A stretch of DNA of 64,000 nucleotides from Leucoraja ocellata (Eukaryota): positions 744,001 to 808,000 of the forward strand of contig JAWMAR010000079.1 of NCBI GenBank assembly GCA_036785375.1, in the 5' to 3' direction. Numbering within the stretch: the stretch's first letter is position 1; each line of letters starts with the position of its first letter. Position numbers: made by a program. Below, piece by piece: positions 33,301 through 39,300 of this stretch.

Positions 33301-36300
33301 CCAACAGGAGAATCACAGATAGAGGCACAAGTGAAGAGTCCCCAGTTATCTCCTGAACTGAATGATTCCAGTAAATCACTATGGAAGATTTTGGACCAGA
33401 AGCTCCGTGCGCAGACACGCCAGGGATATTCTGCTCTCCCGGAGGTCATCCAGATGATAATGTCCAACATCATTCCAGGGAACAAGTGGGAATTGTATTC
33501 CATAATGTTACAGGTTCTATATAATAGTCAGCTTGGAGACATTGGGTTGGGGTTGCAGCAACTGCTACCTCAGCTACATCTGTACATTTTTCAGGAAACT
33601 GAAGACTTTAGACCACTCTTTGCACTTGCTGAGGAGCTGTTGAGTTCATTTGGAGTTAATTGGAAAGCTCTATTGCTGTCCATGCAGGAGGAAGCGTGTT
33701 ATTTTGCTTCATCTATGAATAGAAGATCATTAATTGATTTTGCCCAAGTGTTTCTTTCATCTAGTGTTCATGAAGATCGCTCCAGAATGTGGAAGGATGG
33801 CTTTAATATTCCAAACCTGTTGTTAAGTTTCATTGGGAAGGTGCAACAGATCCTTTCTTTTGGGCTAAAGACTATTTGGCATTTCTTTAGTCAGAATGTG
33901 TTTCCATTTTTTGACTCCTATCTTTGTAAAGTGGCAAAACAAATATTGAAGCTAACGGACATTTTCTTGGAGGGAATGTTCTTTGCAAGCAATATAATTA
34001 AATTGGATGGAATGGGACAATGCCCCCAAGGTAAGGAGCTACAATACACTCAGTGCTTTCATGTCAGTGTTTTCTCTACCCCCCCCCCCCCCCCCCCCCA
34101 TTCCCCAAAAGGCATTGATTCCCTTCATGTGAGAAGCCAGGTAGATACATGCATGCATGCACACACGTGTATACTCACCTCTCATACACATTCCACATCA
34201 CACAAACATGCACACATACAAACGTGTACACACATCCACATAACAATATAAAAACACACATGCTGACACACTAACATGTATGCAGACATACACTGATATA
34301 AAAACATGCACATGTGCAAGCACACACACACAGCTGTTCTACCACAGAATTAAGCCAGTTAATACTATCTGGACCATAATTATATTTGAGTCCATAGAAC
34401 CTGGATTGAAATCCTGCTAAGAAATAGTAAATATTGTTGCATCTTTGCTGTTTGCCTGGATTTTTTCCTTCCCAGGGCTGTATAGTCCAGGTCTACAGCT
34501 TGTAGACGCCCAGGTTTTGCCATACGATTGTAAACTGGTGGGTTGTCGGGCTGCAGGGCAGAGCAGAGTGACAGTGGTCCATTCAGGGAAACTGTTTGGA
34601 GGGTGGGATTAAGTTGCACTGTGGCATTTTCTCCATGACCATCTCAGTTGTACAGTCATCCATCATTGTTACCTAGTTGTCATAATAGGTGTCAATTTCT
34701 GGACAAGCTGGTCATTGCAAATAGATGGAACTGGCAAGAGAGGATGAATCATCAGTCCTAATCCCAACTTCTGTTAAATAAATCAAGGGGGCCTGCAAGT
34801 GTGTGATCCCAACAGGGTTCAGGTGTGGCTCAGTGGGTGAAATTTGTCTCTGAGTCCGAAGGCTGTGGAGTCGAGTTCTGCGGGAGAACTGAACTCAAAA
34901 TCTTTGGGGTCTGAGCTCTGATCTGTTCCACCAACAGGACCCAGCGTTACATTACCCATCGATTGTCCCTCCCATCGTCAATCATCTCCTTGTAGTCTGT
35001 TTGGACAACTCCCCCCCCCCCCCCCCCCCCCGTTCCCTGCCCAAACCTGCTAGCATTCCCGTTGTTGAAGTCTTGTTGTGAGTGTGTTGATTTAGGTAGT
35101 CATATATATAATTTTGTTAATTGTCATTTCATATCTTCACAGGAAATCTGAACCAGCTTCTCAACTGGTAAGTTTCAGAACAAGCTTCTTCCCTTTTGTC
35201 TGTGATAAGGAAATATAGAAATATGAACGAGGAGGATGTGAGTGACTGTAATTGAAACACCCACTCTCCTCAGGATAAACTTATTTTCTACTGACTGGGG
35301 TTAGTACGCAACAAAACGCTATTCACTGTACCTCGGTGCATGGTGCAATAAAATAAACGTTTAGAGGCGTTTAGATAGACACGTGGATGTGTACAGGTGT
35401 GAGGGGTTATGGTGAGAAGGCAAGAGAATGGGGTTGAGAGGTAAAGATATATCAGCCATGATTGAATGGCGTACGAGCCGAATGGCCTAATTCTGTTCCT
35501 GTCACTTATGAACTTATGTAGGCATTGGAGAGATGTGGATCACTTGCAGGCAGAGATTAACTTGGCATTGTGTTTGCACATACATTGAGGGCCGAAGGGC
35601 CTGTACATATGTTGTACTCTTCAGATTCAGATTCAGATTCAATTTTAATTGTCATTGTCAGTGTACAGTACAGAGACAACGAAATGTCCTCTTCTATGAT
35701 TCTGGGATAGGGTTTATTAAAAGGTCATCCTTTTGTCCACACAGGGGCCGGCTTCACAACCTGTCGTGGAATTTCGAAGCTGTTCCGCTGGACGTGGCAG
35801 AGATCGTCAAGTCTGGCTCTGCAGCCCATCCCCGGGCAACTGATCGCGTTTTCCAGCTGATCTCCAAACTTCCAAACGTCCCCACCAACTGCGACCAGGA
35901 CCTGTGGCTTTGGACGAACAGGACGGTTTGCGGGGAAGTGTTGCGGCGGCAGTCCGTGCCGGCCTGGCTGCCCGGGGTGTGCGGCGTCGTGAGGGGGTTG
36001 GCAGCGAGACGGGCGGCTCCTCTGATGGAGCACGTTTGCAGGAGCGTGGCCTTGGTGTCCACTTCCGTGGCCCAAGGAGCCGACTTCTTCCTCCAGCACT
36101 GCGTGTATAGGGGACTGGGATCCAGGAGCCACCCACCTGCCCGCAACACCCGGCAGCTGGGAGCTCAGACCTGCAACTACGGCGCCGACTTCATCAACTC
36201 CACAGACGTCGGGTACTGCTCGGTGGTGGACGAGGCCGGCTTTAGAAAGACTATCTGCGGCAATGCTTCGCTGCTGGAAGCCCTGATGAAGAACCCGGCG

Positions 36301-39300
36301 CACTCGTGGCTGGAAGCCTTCTGCTCCGTCTCCCCCGACCCCCTCGCCTCGATCCCCGCGGCTGTAGACGTCCTCGGCCCGGGGACAGCCCCGGCCTTCA
36401 GCGTGGCCGCTGACTGCCGCTACCAGGAGTGGGAATCCTCGCCCCCCGCCGACCAGTTGCTCGCCTTCTGCGCCAGCGAGGACGGTGGGGGCTTCTCTGC
36501 CGCCGTGTGCGAGCCCGGCTCGGCGCTGGAGCCGCTGGGGCTTTGGTTGTGCGGCGACGGCTACAGCCTCTTCTGCCAGTACAGCCGCTGGGAGCAGGAG
36601 GTGCCCGACCCTTCCATCGTGGCCCTGTGCCGCAGTACTGACCCGGACAAGTTCAACGTGTCGGTGTGCGGCAGCGCCAGCCTCCTGCACAAGTTGAGCC
36701 AGGAGCCGGGCAACGAGTGGCTTCCCCCCGCCTGCGGCGCCCAGCACCGCTGCCGCTACGAGGAGTGGCTGGGAGCGCCGCCTGTCCCCGCCAGCCTGGT
36801 GGCCCTCTGCGGGGACATTGACTCCACCTTCGACCTGATGGTCTGCACATCTGCCGCGCTCCTGGAGCAACTGCTGGCCGACCCGGACAACGCGTGGCTG
36901 CGCCGGGTCTGCGCTGTCCCAGCCGTGTCCGCCTTCCCAGAGCCGGGCTCGCCGGCCGCTCCCACCGCCGATCCATGGGACCTCATCGGAGCCGCGGGCG
37001 GTCTGTGCAGCTACGGGACGTGGGCGCGCCCGGCGGCCGTGGACAGCACCGTGGTCGCCTTGTGCTTCAACAGCGACGCCCAGCAGTTCAACATCTGGGT
37101 GTGTCAGGATCCAGCTGTTCTCCAGCAGCTGCTGAACGACCCGTACAACCTCTGGCTCGTTGACATCTGCGGCACTCCTTCCTCTTGGGAGGTGAACGTG
37201 ACCGAGCCAGCGTCGGCCTGCCAGTACAGTCAGTGGGCTGAGGAACCGGTCGACCCTTACCTCGTGGACTTCTGCTGGTCGAACGACCAGGCGAATTTCT
37301 CTCGACTCGTCTGTCAAGACCAAGCGCTGATCACCAAGCTTCTGCTGTATCCCGAGAACGCGTGGTTGCAGTCTCCGTGTAACATCCAGGCAACGGGTAC
37401 TACCAGCTGCCGCTATGGGGAGTGGACGGGGCCCGCCTCCATTGACCCTGCCACCGTTGAGTATTGCAGTCAGTATGATATGGACAATTTTGTACAAGTT
37501 GCATGTGACAACTCTACCCGATTGTGGGAGCTCCTGAACAGTGGAGAGGGCACCTGGCTCGCTGACTACTGTGCCCACACCCAAGTAGATGGGATAGACA
37601 CAGACATCATGTGTAGATACAGCTCCTGGGCATTGCATCGAGTGGACCCAACAACCGTGGCCCTCTGCTTCGACCACGATCAGGACAATTTCAACACATT
37701 GGTCTGCCGGAACCCTGGAGTGCTTCACGCCCTGACCAGCGACCCTGACAACTCCTGGGTTGAACAAGACTGTTTCTCAATCAGCAACTCCACCACTCCT
37801 CAGGAGACCGAAGTCTGCCCCGTGCAGGATCTCATCTCAAGACTCGAGTGGACTTGCAGCCAGGGCACACCAGGGCCTTGCGCACACCAGCTGCTCCGGC
37901 TGGCAGATGTTCCTGCCTTGGTCCTCTGCGGTTTGGAACACATCGGCCTCACCTTAGGCAGCACAGCTGCTGAGGAGCTAACTACTGGGCTCACAGAGGC
38001 CATCAACAAGGTCGTTTTAGGGCTTGTGGCATTGGAGGATGATGTAATCTCATCCCTTCAGCTGCTTCAGAATGCAAGGAATCAAGTCCTCTACACTGTG
38101 ATAGACTATTTGGATCATCAAAAGAGCTACAGGATCAAAAGAGAGATGCTTCAGTGTTTTGGGGTAAGGGATACTGCCCTACTAATGACCAGGTTAACTC
38201 AGCATTGCTTTTACTGACTACTCACAGTCTTGCTCAATGCAATAACTTGAACTTCTCTAGTCTGAAGATGGCTTCTGACCCAAAACATCATATGTCCTGT
38301 CCATTCCATGGCCGGATGCTGTCTGACCCATTGAGCTCCTCTAGCATTTTGTGTTTTACTCAAGTACTTGAGTTCACCGACTCTGGATCTGGTTACATGC
38401 ATCATTAATGTAGGACCCTGTAACCAAGTTAAAGTAAAAATTGTTGATCCACTCCCGTGTAATTCCTTTGCTGGACTTTAGTCAGTTTTAAAACTCTAGT
38501 TTGAGGTAGTTGTGCTTTCTCAGTGGGTGGCTGGGTCAATAGCTGGAGGATCACAGGATATCCCTGGGATAGAGTTCAGTAAATGTGCACCAGATCATTT
38601 CCTGGGATGGTTAGTTTGTCCCATCAAGGGAGATTGTAGTCTGGGCCTGTACCCTGGACTGTAGAAGAATGAGAAATGAACTCACTGAAACAGTGTTCAT
38701 GCGAGTTGGTGTTTCCCCTAGCTCAGGAACCAGGTCACAGTCTTAAAATAAGGGGTCGGCCATTAGGAATGAATAAATCTTTGGAGTTATCTTCCGAAGG
38801 ATTCTGGAGATCTTATTGCTGAGTATTTAACTTAGGAGATCTTTATGGAGATAATGCGGGAAAGTGCCACTGAAATAAAAGTTCAGACGTGGTCTTACTG
38901 TGTATTAGAGCAGGTGATGGGCTGAATAGCTTGCTGCTGCTGCTTCCATTTCTCATGTGGTGCAGTTTCAAGGCTAACTCTACCTGCTCAATCTAAGGTA
39001 TTGCTACACTTTGGAGATGCTACCGTCTACATTAAAAGGTAAACCAAGGCACCACCTGAATGTGAATGCTCTTGTGGTATTATTCAAAGAAGAGCAGAGC
39101 AGTGCTCCTTAGTTCCTAACTGGTTGCATTTATTGGCCAGAGTGGAGGTAATTGGGTGAACTGGAGACCACACTATTGTAAGCGACAGGCATTAATTTTT
39201 TTGTGCAGCTGTTCTCACCATGTATTTTGATGAAAAAGTGAGTCTTCTTTAATTGGGAGGCATCACTATTGTTTCAGACATTGTCAACAGAAACATTTAT

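What the first reader, a model, noticed from the sequence alone, without database searches (positions are those of the whole stretch)
36172..37773. Eight-copy tandem four-cysteine module array inside a stereocilin-like protein
Seen: eight diverged modules with first Cys at 36172, 36415, 36574, 36751, 37006, 37219, 37408 and 37612. Each follows CxYxxW...DPxxVxxC...D...F...VC...LxxL...PxNxWL...C. They are separated by variable Pro/Ser/Thr linkers, are acidic, and carry several N-x-S/T sequons. All lie in one 2419-nt exon. Recall: mammalian stereocilin is ~1775 aa and has only a short, degenerate Cys-rich segment here, whereas this gene already encodes 1890 aa before its last exons. Inference: an unnamed two-disulfide extracellular domain whose copy number could set the length of hair-bundle links or attachment to overlying gel membranes in inner-ear, lateral-line or electrosensory organs. 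Related repeats may also exist in bony-fish STRC.
Basis: partly seen in the sequence, partly recalled or inferred. Interest (0 to 1): 0.75.

Follow-up and report, generated by a model that had tools for sequence, protein, structure and literature searches.

The report
Cysteine-module array in a ray stereocilin-1 gene
The eight repeats are real and form a conserved, so far unnamed small domain, but the gene is the fish and amphibian stereocilin paralogue strc1 rather than the mammalian deafness gene's counterpart.

Summary
One AG/GT-bounded exon (35745-38163, 2419 nt) encodes eight 46-55-residue modules at exactly the stated cysteines. Each scores 33-72 bits against a profile of the other seven; 500 shuffles of each reach at most 9 bits.

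The gene is stereocilin-family: Pfam PF21058 lies in downstream exons, and 17 pieces are colinear with ray stereocilins. It belongs to the strc1 paralogue, not the clade holding mammalian STRC (split support 100).

A module profile searched against 1.84 billion proteins found 32 hits. All 21 with a named organism are fishes or amphibians, none an amniote. Copies per protein: 8 in rays and a reedfish, 6 in 64 of 72 ray-finned fish proteins, 9-15 in amphibians. Canonical STRC keeps one weak copy, truncated in placental mammals.

No Pfam, PDB-sequence or Foldseek match exists for the module. AlphaFold gives a confident small helical fold (pLDDT 94.8) joined by floppy linkers. Zebrafish strc1 is a lateral-line hair-cell marker (PMC4619078, PMC9851615).

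A role as a link or spacer is inferred, not shown.

The parts
35745..38163 (+). Single large coding exon (2419 nt) holding the whole module array
   Evidence: AG before 35745 and GT after 38163. The reading frame is open throughout. Alignments to ray stereocilins stop at 38163. GC is 63% against 35-47% elsewhere.
35890..35982 (+). Possible degenerate, N-terminally truncated ninth copy upstream of the array (CD..NRTVC..WL..C)
   Evidence: Profile-profile match of the module to the pre-array part of the family alignment, module positions 13-54: probability 5.9%, E 0.006 for that single comparison. hmmsearch reports nothing here. Weak; a lead only. The window coordinates are my placement by eye of the matching cysteine pattern (residues 45-75 of the exon protein); no call maps them.
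36172..36324 (+). Module 1 (51 aa; lacks the conserved W6 stretch)
   Evidence: 40.3 bits leave-one-out. Positional orthologue is module 1 of Narcine and Hemitrygon.
36415..36552 (+). Module 2 (46 aa; most degenerate, short last helix region)
   Evidence: 32.8 bits leave-one-out.
36574..36735 (+). Module 3 (54 aa)
   Evidence: 65.2 bits. AlphaFold2 model has pLDDT 94.8.
36751..36912 (+). Module 4 (54 aa), 5-residue linker from module 3
   Evidence: 55.4 bits.
37006..37170 (+). Module 5 (55 aa), preceded by a 31-residue Ala/Pro-rich linker
   Evidence: 65.3 bits. The linker has pLDDT below 50.
37219..37380 (+). Module 6 (54 aa)
   Evidence: 64.0 bits. Reciprocal best match to module 4 of three teleost strc1 proteins.
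37408..37572 (+). Module 7 (55 aa)
   Evidence: 50.0 bits.
37612..37773 (+). Module 8 (54 aa)
   Evidence: 71.9 bits.
37774..38160 (+). Post-array segment with four more conserved Cys, leading into the Stereocilin (PF21058) domain
   Evidence: Weak PF21058 match at its end. 64-70% identical to ray strc1 proteins. Of the 120 canonical STRC proteins in the local database (the 120 listed), it hits only 4, weakly.
33211..34035 (+). Upstream coding exon of the same gene (N-terminal region)
   Evidence: tblastn: residues 19-292 of Hemitrygon strc1 P0044, 59% identity.
40775..63371 (+). At least 15 further exons of the same gene, including the PF21058 Stereocilin domain; the gene runs off the window
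   Evidence: Colinear tblastn pieces with three ray proteins. PF21058 hits lie in ORFs 43286-43615 (4e-15, 56.3 bits) and 46083-46424 (3.5e-8, 33.4 bits), against a curated cut-off of 26.6.

Best explanation
The window holds most of the strc1 (stereocilin 1) gene of a ray-like cartilaginous fish.

The eight repeats are copies of a roughly 54-residue module specific to the stereocilin family. Canonical STRC carries one weak copy of it. The strc1 paralogue multiplied it into an array early in jawed-vertebrate history.

Each module most likely folds on its own into a small bundle of three to four short helices. The conserved Y3/W6/F27/L41/W49 would form the core, Asp/Asn would cap the helices, and four invariant cysteines would form two disulfides.

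Modules are joined by flexible linkers of 5-31 residues. The array would therefore be an acidic, glycosylated, beads-on-a-string stalk. It sits between the N-terminal region and the helical-repeat stereocilin/mesothelin-like body.

By analogy with mammalian stereocilin and with zebrafish strc1 expression, the protein is most likely secreted by lateral-line-type hair cells. It would help tie the hair bundle to itself or to the overlying gel (cupula), with the array giving reach and repeated contact sites.

Shown: the repeat, its family restriction, the paralogy, the copy numbers, the predicted fold and the flexible linkers.

Inferred: the disulfides, secretion, tissue, and the link or spacer role.
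For: Repeat and exon.

Stereocilin family:
- PF21058 in downstream exons above Pfam's cut-off.
- 17 colinear pieces with Hemitrygon stereocilin P0044.
- The exon is 56%, 53% and 99% identical to Narcine P0036, Hemitrygon P0044 and an unnamed contig's ORF P0004.

strc1 clade:
- Tree of 41 proteins on 1684 columns. The canonical (24 rows) versus strc1 (16 rows plus the window exon) split has SH-aLRT 100.
- The window exon falls in a 4-row ray clade with support 100.
- Both sides hold cartilaginous fishes, ray-finned fishes and amphibians.
- Seven genera have both paralogues.

Family restriction:
- 32 hits in 1.84 billion representatives.
- 21 clusters with a named organism are all fish or amphibian stereocilin, strc1 or uncharacterised proteins.
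- One hit is a WD40 false positive made of fragments of 0-3 bits each.

Conservation:
- All four Cys are present in 210 of 210 distinct full-length copies.
- Y3 99%, W6 97%, W49 94%, D23 92%, F27 91%.

Positional orthology: window modules match the same-numbered Narcine module in 7 of 8 cases and the Hemitrygon module in 8 of 8 as reciprocal best hits, by wide margins.

Fold:
- Single module pLDDT 94.8, pTM 0.75, helices 13-22, 24-32, 35-42 and 50-53.
- D12, D23 and N34 sit just before helices.
- Whole exon: modules at pLDDT about 70-86; five inter-module or post-array linkers fall below 50; pTM 0.28.

Charge and sequons.

Expression lead:
- In situ hybridisation in zebrafish found strc in the ear only and CR293520.1/strc-like in the lateral line only (PMC4619078, passages read).
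- strc1 is listed as a lateral-line marker (PMC9851615, passages).
- strc is absent from wild-type lateral-line hair cells (PMC12361438, passages).
Against: - No expression, secretion or binding data exist for this animal or for any cartilaginous fish.
- I did not see the zebrafish strc1 protein itself. The link to the array clade rests on database names ('strc1', 'Stereocilin 1') and on a 6-copy Danio aesculapii relative.
- The whole-exon model is of low confidence (mean pLDDT 64.2). 'Independent beads' rests on low linker confidence, which can also arise from a shallow and partly misaligned 29-row alignment.
- Positional conservation of each module over long times fits position-specific binding better than a passive spacer.
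- The near-fixed count of six in ray-finned fishes speaks against copy number as a freely tuned length setting.
- The 99% identical database ORF reads through both splice sites, so it is genomic and gives no evidence that the exon is included in mRNA.
Confidence: 0.6

Rival explanations
1. One reading: this is the orthologue of mammalian STRC. Its array is a lineage-specific enlargement of the short mammalian Cys-rich segment, and copy number sets the length of inner-ear hair-bundle links.
For: The same module does occur once in canonical STRC, and as a truncated remnant in placental mammals. Copy number differs between major lineages.
Against: - The tree separates the canonical and strc1 clades with support 100, and the window exon lies in strc1.
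- Hemitrygon akajei, Pygocentrus, Amphiprion, Brienomyrus, Rhinoderma, Pleurodeles and Pyxicephalus each have both genes.
- None of the 120 canonical proteins has three copies of 10 bits or more.
- In zebrafish the ear gene is strc and the lateral-line gene is the strc-like paralogue (PMC4619078).
Confidence: 0.07
2. The array is a multivalent, position-specific binding platform rather than a spacer. Each module position recognises its own partner, a matrix glycoprotein or membrane anchor, so what matters is the set of positions and not the length.
For: - Each window module is far closer to the same-numbered module of other rays than to its own neighbours, for example 242 against 142 for module 6.
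- Module 6 keeps a reciprocal best match to teleost module 4 in 3 of 3 teleosts tried.
- The count is fixed at six in 64 of 72 ray-finned fish proteins.
- Mesothelin, a relative, is thought to act as a lectin-like binder of MUC16 (PMC2628672, passages).
- Mammalian stereocilin interacts with TMEM145 in heterologous cells (PMC12789471, abstract and passages).
Against: - No partner is known.
- The residues conserved across all copies are core and cap positions, not surface patches.
- Between rays and bony fishes most positions cannot be matched one to one.
- Amphibians, Esox, Umbra and Alosa changed the count to between 9 and 15.
Confidence: 0.3
3. Not a functional feature: a chance pattern, a mispredicted exon or a decaying pseudogene segment.
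For: The exon's GC content (63%) differs sharply from its surroundings.
Against: - An open frame of 2.4 kb.
- Scores far above shuffles.
- 53-56% identity to annotated ray proteins over the whole exon.
- Invariant cysteines in 210 of 210 copies across fishes and amphibians.
- A confident fold prediction.
Confidence: 0.01

Closest known systems
strc1 / 'stereocilin 1' of ray-finned fishes and rays (database-annotated; zebrafish strc1 = CR293520.1/strc-like)
   Same: Same clade. Same architecture: N-terminal region, Cys-module array, PF21058, C-terminal body. 53-56% identical to Narcine and Hemitrygon proteins over the exon. An upstream CTDSPL2-like neighbour matches merged teleost gene models.
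   Different: Eight modules, as in other rays and the reedfish, against six in most ray-finned fishes. Neither the array nor the module is described in any paper found. Only the zebrafish expression pattern is in print.
Canonical stereocilin (STRC; mammalian deafness gene DFNB16, the name recalled)
   Same: Same protein family and PF21058 domain. It holds one copy of the same module at the equivalent place, with the C.Y..W...C...F...VC...W...C pattern intact in frogs, turtles, coelacanth and sharks.
   Different: A separate paralogue clade. It has one weak copy: best 33.4 bits, median 20.1, and 0 of 120 reach 37 bits. In placental mammals that copy has lost about 15 residues. In zebrafish it is expressed in the ear, not the lateral line (PMC4619078).
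Mesothelin / otoancorin superhelical ARM-type repeat proteins (PMC2628672)
   Same: Distant relatives of the C-terminal body of stereocilins. Their repeats are also helical and about 50 residues long.
   Different: The module profile shows no relation to the C-terminal repeat region of strc1 proteins (hhalign probability 0.1%). It has no Foldseek match in the PDB, which I recall holds mesothelin structures though no call checked that. It carries four invariant cysteines and flexible linkers, so it is not part of a continuous solenoid as predicted.
Tandem small disulfide-rich extracellular modules in general (EGF-like, and similar arrays in matrix proteins; recalled, not tested individually)
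   Same: Short, cysteine-stabilised, tandemly repeated extracellular units with glycosylation sites, as found in matrix-contacting proteins.
   Different: All-helical prediction rather than beta-rich. No Pfam family of any such kind matches, even at E up to 1.

Membership tests
Stereocilin family (Pfam PF21058-bearing proteins) | Stereocilin domain PF21058 above Pfam's gathering score | tested here: met
   ORF 43286-43615 scores 56.3 bits and ORF 46083-46424 scores 33.4 bits, against a cut-off of 26.6. Exons were scanned one by one; no joined model was scanned.
Stereocilin family (Pfam PF21058-bearing proteins) | Colinear similarity to annotated stereocilins along the gene | tested here: met
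   17, 17 and 16 ordered tblastn pieces with P0044, P0036 and P0079, spanning 33211-63371.
strc1 paralogue | Falls on the strc1 side of the STRC/strc1 split | tested here: met
   SH-aLRT 100 for the split and 100 for the ray strc1 clade holding the exon. This was a quick IQ-TREE search with LG+G4, unrooted. The window row fills 23% of the columns.
strc1 paralogue | Array of six or more four-Cys modules upstream of PF21058 | tested here: met
   Eight copies, each with a per-copy (independent) E-value below 1e-3.
strc1 paralogue | Expression in lateral-line rather than ear hair cells (zebrafish criterion) | not testable with these tools
   No expression data for this animal. The zebrafish data come from PMC4619078 and PMC9851615 (passages read).
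Canonical STRC (orthologue of the mammalian gene) | Groups with mammalian, bird, reptile and canonical fish STRC | tested here: not met
   Excluded by the support-100 split. The post-array segment hits only 4 canonical proteins, weakly, among 49 hits.
Any named Pfam cysteine-rich or repeat domain | Pfam match on the array | tested here: not met
   No family at E up to 1 on residues 139-672 of the exon protein. No family other than PF21058 in 6 homologues.
ARM-type repeats of the mesothelin/stereocilin superhelix | Profile or fold similarity of the module to the family's helical repeats | tested here: not met
   hhalign probability 0.1% against the C-terminal region. Foldseek of the module against the PDB gives 0 matches at E up to 10. 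The whole-exon model gives only E at or above 0.077 with TM at or below 0.15. Short models search poorly, so this is a weak negative.
   Four Cys are invariant in 210 of 210 distinct full-length copies. Those copies were selected for end-to-end matches, which favours the two terminal Cys. No coordinates were available to see bonds or pairing.

The most novel reading that the evidence does not exclude
The module is an undescribed, stereocilin-family-only extracellular domain: a disulfide-stapled helical mini-bundle.

Its multiplication defines a second, ancient hair-bundle link protein, strc1, dedicated to lateral-line-type organs. That protein was lost with the lateral line in amniotes and re-expanded to 9-15 copies and several loci in amphibians.

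The array would form the elastic or multivalent tether between hair bundle and cupula. This would make the molecular basis of cupular attachment, and its loss on land, directly testable.
Probability: 0.3. Interest if true: 0.65.

Novelty: new member of a known kind. Interest (0 to 1): 0.4.

Why it matters
Stereocilin is a major human deafness gene, and its N-terminal half has no defined domains.

This analysis defines a compact module that is shared by both vertebrate stereocilin paralogues. It shows that placental mammals keep only a truncated copy. It also ties the multi-copy form to strc1, the paralogue that marks lateral-line hair cells in zebrafish.

That gives a concrete handle for structure determination, for a Pfam-style family definition, and for deletion experiments on how hair bundles attach to overlying gels in fish and amphibians.

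For the genome scan itself the result is mostly ordinary: a well-conserved exon of a gene already annotated in related species.

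Tried and rejected
- **Tandem Repeats Finder** on the exon DNA found only two trivial short repeats.
- **PDB sequence search** of the exon protein gave 0 hits at E up to 1.
- **ESM Atlas look-alike search** of modules 3-4 gave no usable hit.
- **Foldseek against the PDB** gave 0 matches for the single module. The whole exon gave only insignificant alpha-solenoid-like matches: best E 0.077, TM at or below 0.15, on a low-confidence model.
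- **hhalign of the module against the strc1 C-terminal region** gave probability 0.1%. Against the pre-array region it gave 5.9%, a possible degenerate ninth copy that is not significant.
- **Disulfide pairing from paired cysteine loss** was impossible, because no full-length copy lacks a cysteine and placental mammals keep all four.
- **A deeper single-module alignment** could not be made. That step was stopped and the module was folded from the eight window copies only.
- **First homologue search** with the post-array segment returned only 3 close ray proteins, because of the tool's word index.
- **Rfam and window-wide tandem-repeat scans** found nothing relevant.
- **Not checked:** the collections metagenome contigs and viral contigs (closed), paper supplements (closed; the zebrafish expression tables may list strc1 values), and any eukaryotic genomic loci of homologues. 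The one-exon structure of the array in other species is therefore unknown.
Exons were handled one by one.

Full report
**1. What is in the sequence**

The window has no N. Its composition is vertebrate-like at 35-47% GC, except for one 63% GC block at 36-38 kb.

That block is a long open frame on the + strand (35512-38217). Inside it lies an exon bounded by AG at 35743-35744 and GT at 38164-38165.

All eight stated positions are in-frame Cys codons that begin a C-x-Y motif. The eight segments align over 55 columns at 30-43% identity to the first row. Invariant positions are C1, Y3, C19, D23, F27, C32, L41, W49 and C54.

In a leave-one-out test each module scores 32.8-71.9 bits against a profile of the other seven. 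Five hundred shuffles of each module never exceed 9.0 bits.

The array of 534 residues has net charge -49 and six N-x-S/T sequons. Linkers are 5-31 residues, and some but not all are rich in Pro, Ser or Thr.

At DNA level no tandem repeat is detectable, so the duplications are old.

**2. Which gene**

Downstream ORFs carry pieces of Pfam's Stereocilin domain PF21058, at 56.3 and 33.4 bits against a cut-off of 26.6.

Three annotated ray stereocilins map colinearly on the + strand from 33211 to 63371 in 16-17 pieces. The last piece reaches residue 1898 of the 2160-residue Hemitrygon akajei protein, so the gene runs off the window.

The exon protein is 56% identical to Narcine bancroftii 'stereocilin isoform X1 / strc1' and 53% identical to a Hemitrygon akajei 'stereocilin'. 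It is 99% identical to an ORF from an unnamed assembled contig. That ORF reads through both splice sites just as the window's own ORF does. It is therefore genomic and says nothing about splicing.

Exons were scanned separately.

**3. The module elsewhere**

A profile of the eight modules was run against 1.84 billion representative proteins. It gave 32 hits at E up to 0.001, with 24 at E up to 1e-30 and 1-15 matched stretches per protein.

Look-ups of 30 of the 32 hits gave these results:
- 21 clusters have a named organism. All are rays, sturgeons, a reedfish, teleosts, frogs, a salamander or a caecilian.
- Their names are stereocilin, stereocilin-like, strc1, Stereocilin 1 or uncharacterised.
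- One cluster is a WD40 repeat protein whose match consists of fragments of 0-3 bits each, a false positive.
- Eight clusters have no name.
- Two short hits (P0032, P0033) were not looked up.
- No amniote appears.

Local re-scoring gives these counts:

| Group | Copies |
|---|---|
| Narcine, Hemitrygon, Mobula, the window | 8 |
| Erpetoichthys (reedfish) | 8 |
| Sturgeon | 6 |
| Pyxicephalus | 9-10 |
| Rhinoderma, Pelobates | 13-14 |
| Pleurodeles | 15 |
| Umbra | 12 |

A further search from a piranha strc1 returned 75 proteins, all ray-finned fishes. Of the 72 that were new:
- 64 have exactly six copies.
- Alosa has 12 and Esox has 9.
- Six shorter or partial models have 2-5.
- Danio aesculapii, a close relative of zebrafish, has six.

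**4. Two paralogues**

A search from the caecilian 'stereocilin' returned 264 proteins at E up to 1e-5, of which the best 120 are listed. They include mammals, birds, reptiles, amphibians, coelacanth, teleosts (including Danio rerio), sharks, rays and a chimaera.

Several genera appear in both lists: Hemitrygon, Pygocentrus, Amphiprion, Brienomyrus, Rhinoderma, Pleurodeles and Pyxicephalus.

A tree of 41 proteins (24 canonical, 16 array-bearing, plus the window exon; 1684 columns; quick IQ-TREE, LG+G4, unrooted) splits the two sets with SH-aLRT 100. Each side roughly follows the species tree. The window exon sits in a ray clade with Narcine, Hemitrygon and Mobula, also at 100.

Caveats on this tree:
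- The window row fills 23% of the columns.
- Array columns were not removed.
- No outgroup was available.

Because both sides contain cartilaginous and bony vertebrates, the duplication predates their split wherever the root falls between the two sets.

The post-array segment of the exon agrees. It hits 45 array-bearing proteins and only 4 canonical ones, weakly.

The window gene is thus strc1, not the orthologue of mammalian STRC.

**5. The module in canonical STRC**

Across the 120 canonical proteins:
- The best single copy scores 33.4 bits at most, with a median of 20.1.
- 61 reach 20 bits and none reaches 37.
- Ten have two copies of 15 bits or more.
- None has three copies of 10 bits or more.

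The alignment shows one intact copy, with pattern C.Y..W ... C ... F...VC ... W...C, in sharks, teleosts, coelacanth, amphibians and turtles. In three placental mammals the four cysteines remain but about 15 residues between the first two are gone. The echidna copy is also reduced. The four mammals score at most 11.2 bits.

It concerns the paralogue, however.

**6. Fold**

Pfam has no model for the array, either in the window exon (E up to 1) or in six homologues. PF21058 begins about 90 residues after the array in those homologues. No PDB sequence matches the exon protein.

AlphaFold2 on module 3, using only the eight window copies as alignment, gives pLDDT 94.8 and pTM 0.75. It predicts helices at 13-22, 24-32, 35-42 and 50-53.

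The conserved D12, D23 and N34 immediately precede helices. I read this as helix capping rather than metal binding; that is inference.

Foldseek finds nothing in the PDB for the module. A short model is a weak query, so this is not strong evidence of a new fold.

The whole exon was modelled with 29 aligned family members:
- Modules come out at roughly pLDDT 70-86.
- The linkers 192-213, 387-411, 476-484, 544-549 and 677-684 fall below 50.
- pTM is 0.28.

This fits independently folded beads on flexible linkers. Modules 2-3-4, which have 8- and 5-residue linkers, may pack together. The model is of low overall confidence (mean pLDDT 64.2), and its Foldseek matches are insignificant.

The module profile is unrelated to the C-terminal helical-repeat region (hhalign probability 0.1%). 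It is only faintly similar to a Cys-bearing stretch just upstream of the array (5.9%).

All four cysteines are present in 210 of 210 distinct full-length copies, drawn from 292 instances selected for end-to-end profile coverage.

**7. Age of the array**

Each window module has the same-numbered module of Hemitrygon (8 of 8) and Narcine (7 of 8; module 2 fails) as its reciprocal best match, by large margins. The eight-module order therefore predates the split of these ray lineages.

Between rays and bony fishes only some positions can be matched. Window module 6 pairs with teleost module 4 in 3 of 3 teleosts. Window module 8 pairs with paddlefish module 6.

**8. Function**

The leads are as follows.
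- Mammalian stereocilin is a component of the horizontal top connectors and tectorial-membrane attachment crowns of outer hair cells. It interacts with TMEM145 in heterologous cells (PMC12789471, abstract and passages).
- In zebrafish, in situ hybridisation found strc in the ear only and the strc-like gene CR293520.1 in the lateral line only (PMC4619078, passages).
- A later paper lists strc1 as a lateral-line marker and strc as an ear marker, citing that work (PMC9851615, passages).
- strc is absent from wild-type neuromast hair cells (PMC12361438, passages).
- The taxonomic range of strc1, fishes and amphibians but no amniote among the named hits, matches the range of the lateral line. That is my inference. 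Absence from amniotes rests on protein databases, not on genome scans.

My best reading is that strc1 is the lateral-line-type counterpart of stereocilin. The array would be an acidic, glycosylated, disulfide-stabilised stalk that gives reach, or repeated contacts, towards neighbouring bundle elements or the cupula.

The identification (strc1 orthologue, family-specific module array) I hold at about 0.9. The link or stalk mechanism I hold at about 0.4.

The main rival is a position-specific binding platform. It is favoured by the positional conservation and by the fixed count of six in ray-finned fishes.

**9. Literature**

I found no description of the module or of an strc1 array. Searches that found none:
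- 'stereocilin' + 'cysteine-rich' + 'repeats'
- 'stereocilin' + 'AlphaFold'
- 'strc1'
- 'stereocilin' + 'paralog' + 'lateral line'
- 'stereocilin' + 'otoancorin' + 'mesothelin' + 'phylogenetic'
- 'stereocilin' + 'cupula' + 'zebrafish'

The 2009 fold-prediction paper on mesothelin, stereocilin and otoancorin mentions cysteines only in passing, about lectins (PMC2628672, passages). The library lacks most subscription journals, and supplements were closed. InterPro beyond Pfam could not be consulted.

**10. Verdict**

The module is an unnamed domain restricted to the stereocilin family.

The array is nonetheless a standard, conserved feature of a gene already annotated in many fish and amphibian genomes. 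The gene is the strc1 paralogue, so the contrast with mammalian STRC is a paralogue contrast.

I rate the novelty as a new member of a known kind, with a modest domain-definition gain, and the interest at 0.4.

Noticed in passing
window 11359-11751 (+): An ORF with an NIF-type phosphatase domain (PF03031, 5.4e-15), probably an exon of a CTDSPL2-like gene upstream of strc1. Merged teleost gene models fuse PF21058 with PF03031 and/or PF08597 (Channa, Clarias, Muraenolepis). The strc1-ctdspl2-eif3j neighbourhood may therefore be conserved from rays to teleosts.
   Followed up: partly
window 36001-38000: The array exon is 63% GC, in a window that is otherwise 35-47% GC. The cause is unknown; it could be codon or amino-acid bias of an Ala/Pro/Gly/Asp-rich exon, or GC-biased gene conversion.
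   Followed up: no
P0004 / P0035 (unnamed contig ORFs) against window 35512-38217: A 3120-nt public contig encodes an ORF 99% identical to the exon (6 differences in 801 residues). It continues through both splice sites like the window's stop-to-stop ORF, so it is genomic DNA of the same or a very close species. Its source was not traced.
   Followed up: partly
Canonical STRC of Hemitrygon, Rhincodon, Callorhinchus (P0139, P0131, P0124), alignment: Cartilaginous-fish canonical STRC carries an extra insert of roughly 200 residues. It is made of repeated 'LC.N.T....LC' units resembling the second half of the module, and it is absent from bony vertebrates.
   Followed up: no
Rhinoderma darwinii proteins P0007, P0037-P0043: One frog genome has at least seven separate loci (LOC names) encoding array-bearing proteins of 273-1967 residues on one chromosome-scale contig. 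This suggests tandem gene duplication, or fragmented models, of strc1 in frogs.
   Followed up: no
Alosa pseudoharengus P0205, Esox lucius P0207, Umbra pygmaea P0006: These are exceptions to the six-copy rule in ray-finned fishes, with 12, 9 and 12 copies. In Alosa and Umbra the pattern looks like a block duplication of several modules. An assembly artefact is not excluded.
   Followed up: no
Otophysan strc1 proteins (Pygocentrus P0072, Astyanax P0200, Pangasianodon P0202 and others): An insert of roughly 150-325 residues separates modules 3 and 4 in characins, catfishes and a knifefish. It is absent in cyprinids. Its content was not examined.
   Followed up: no
window 18306-18369 and 35618-35640: Simple repeats: (TA)32, and a short TTCAGA-type microsatellite just upstream of the array exon. 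The strong positive GC skew at 14-20 kb is unexplained; the ORFs there have no Pfam match.
   Followed up: partly
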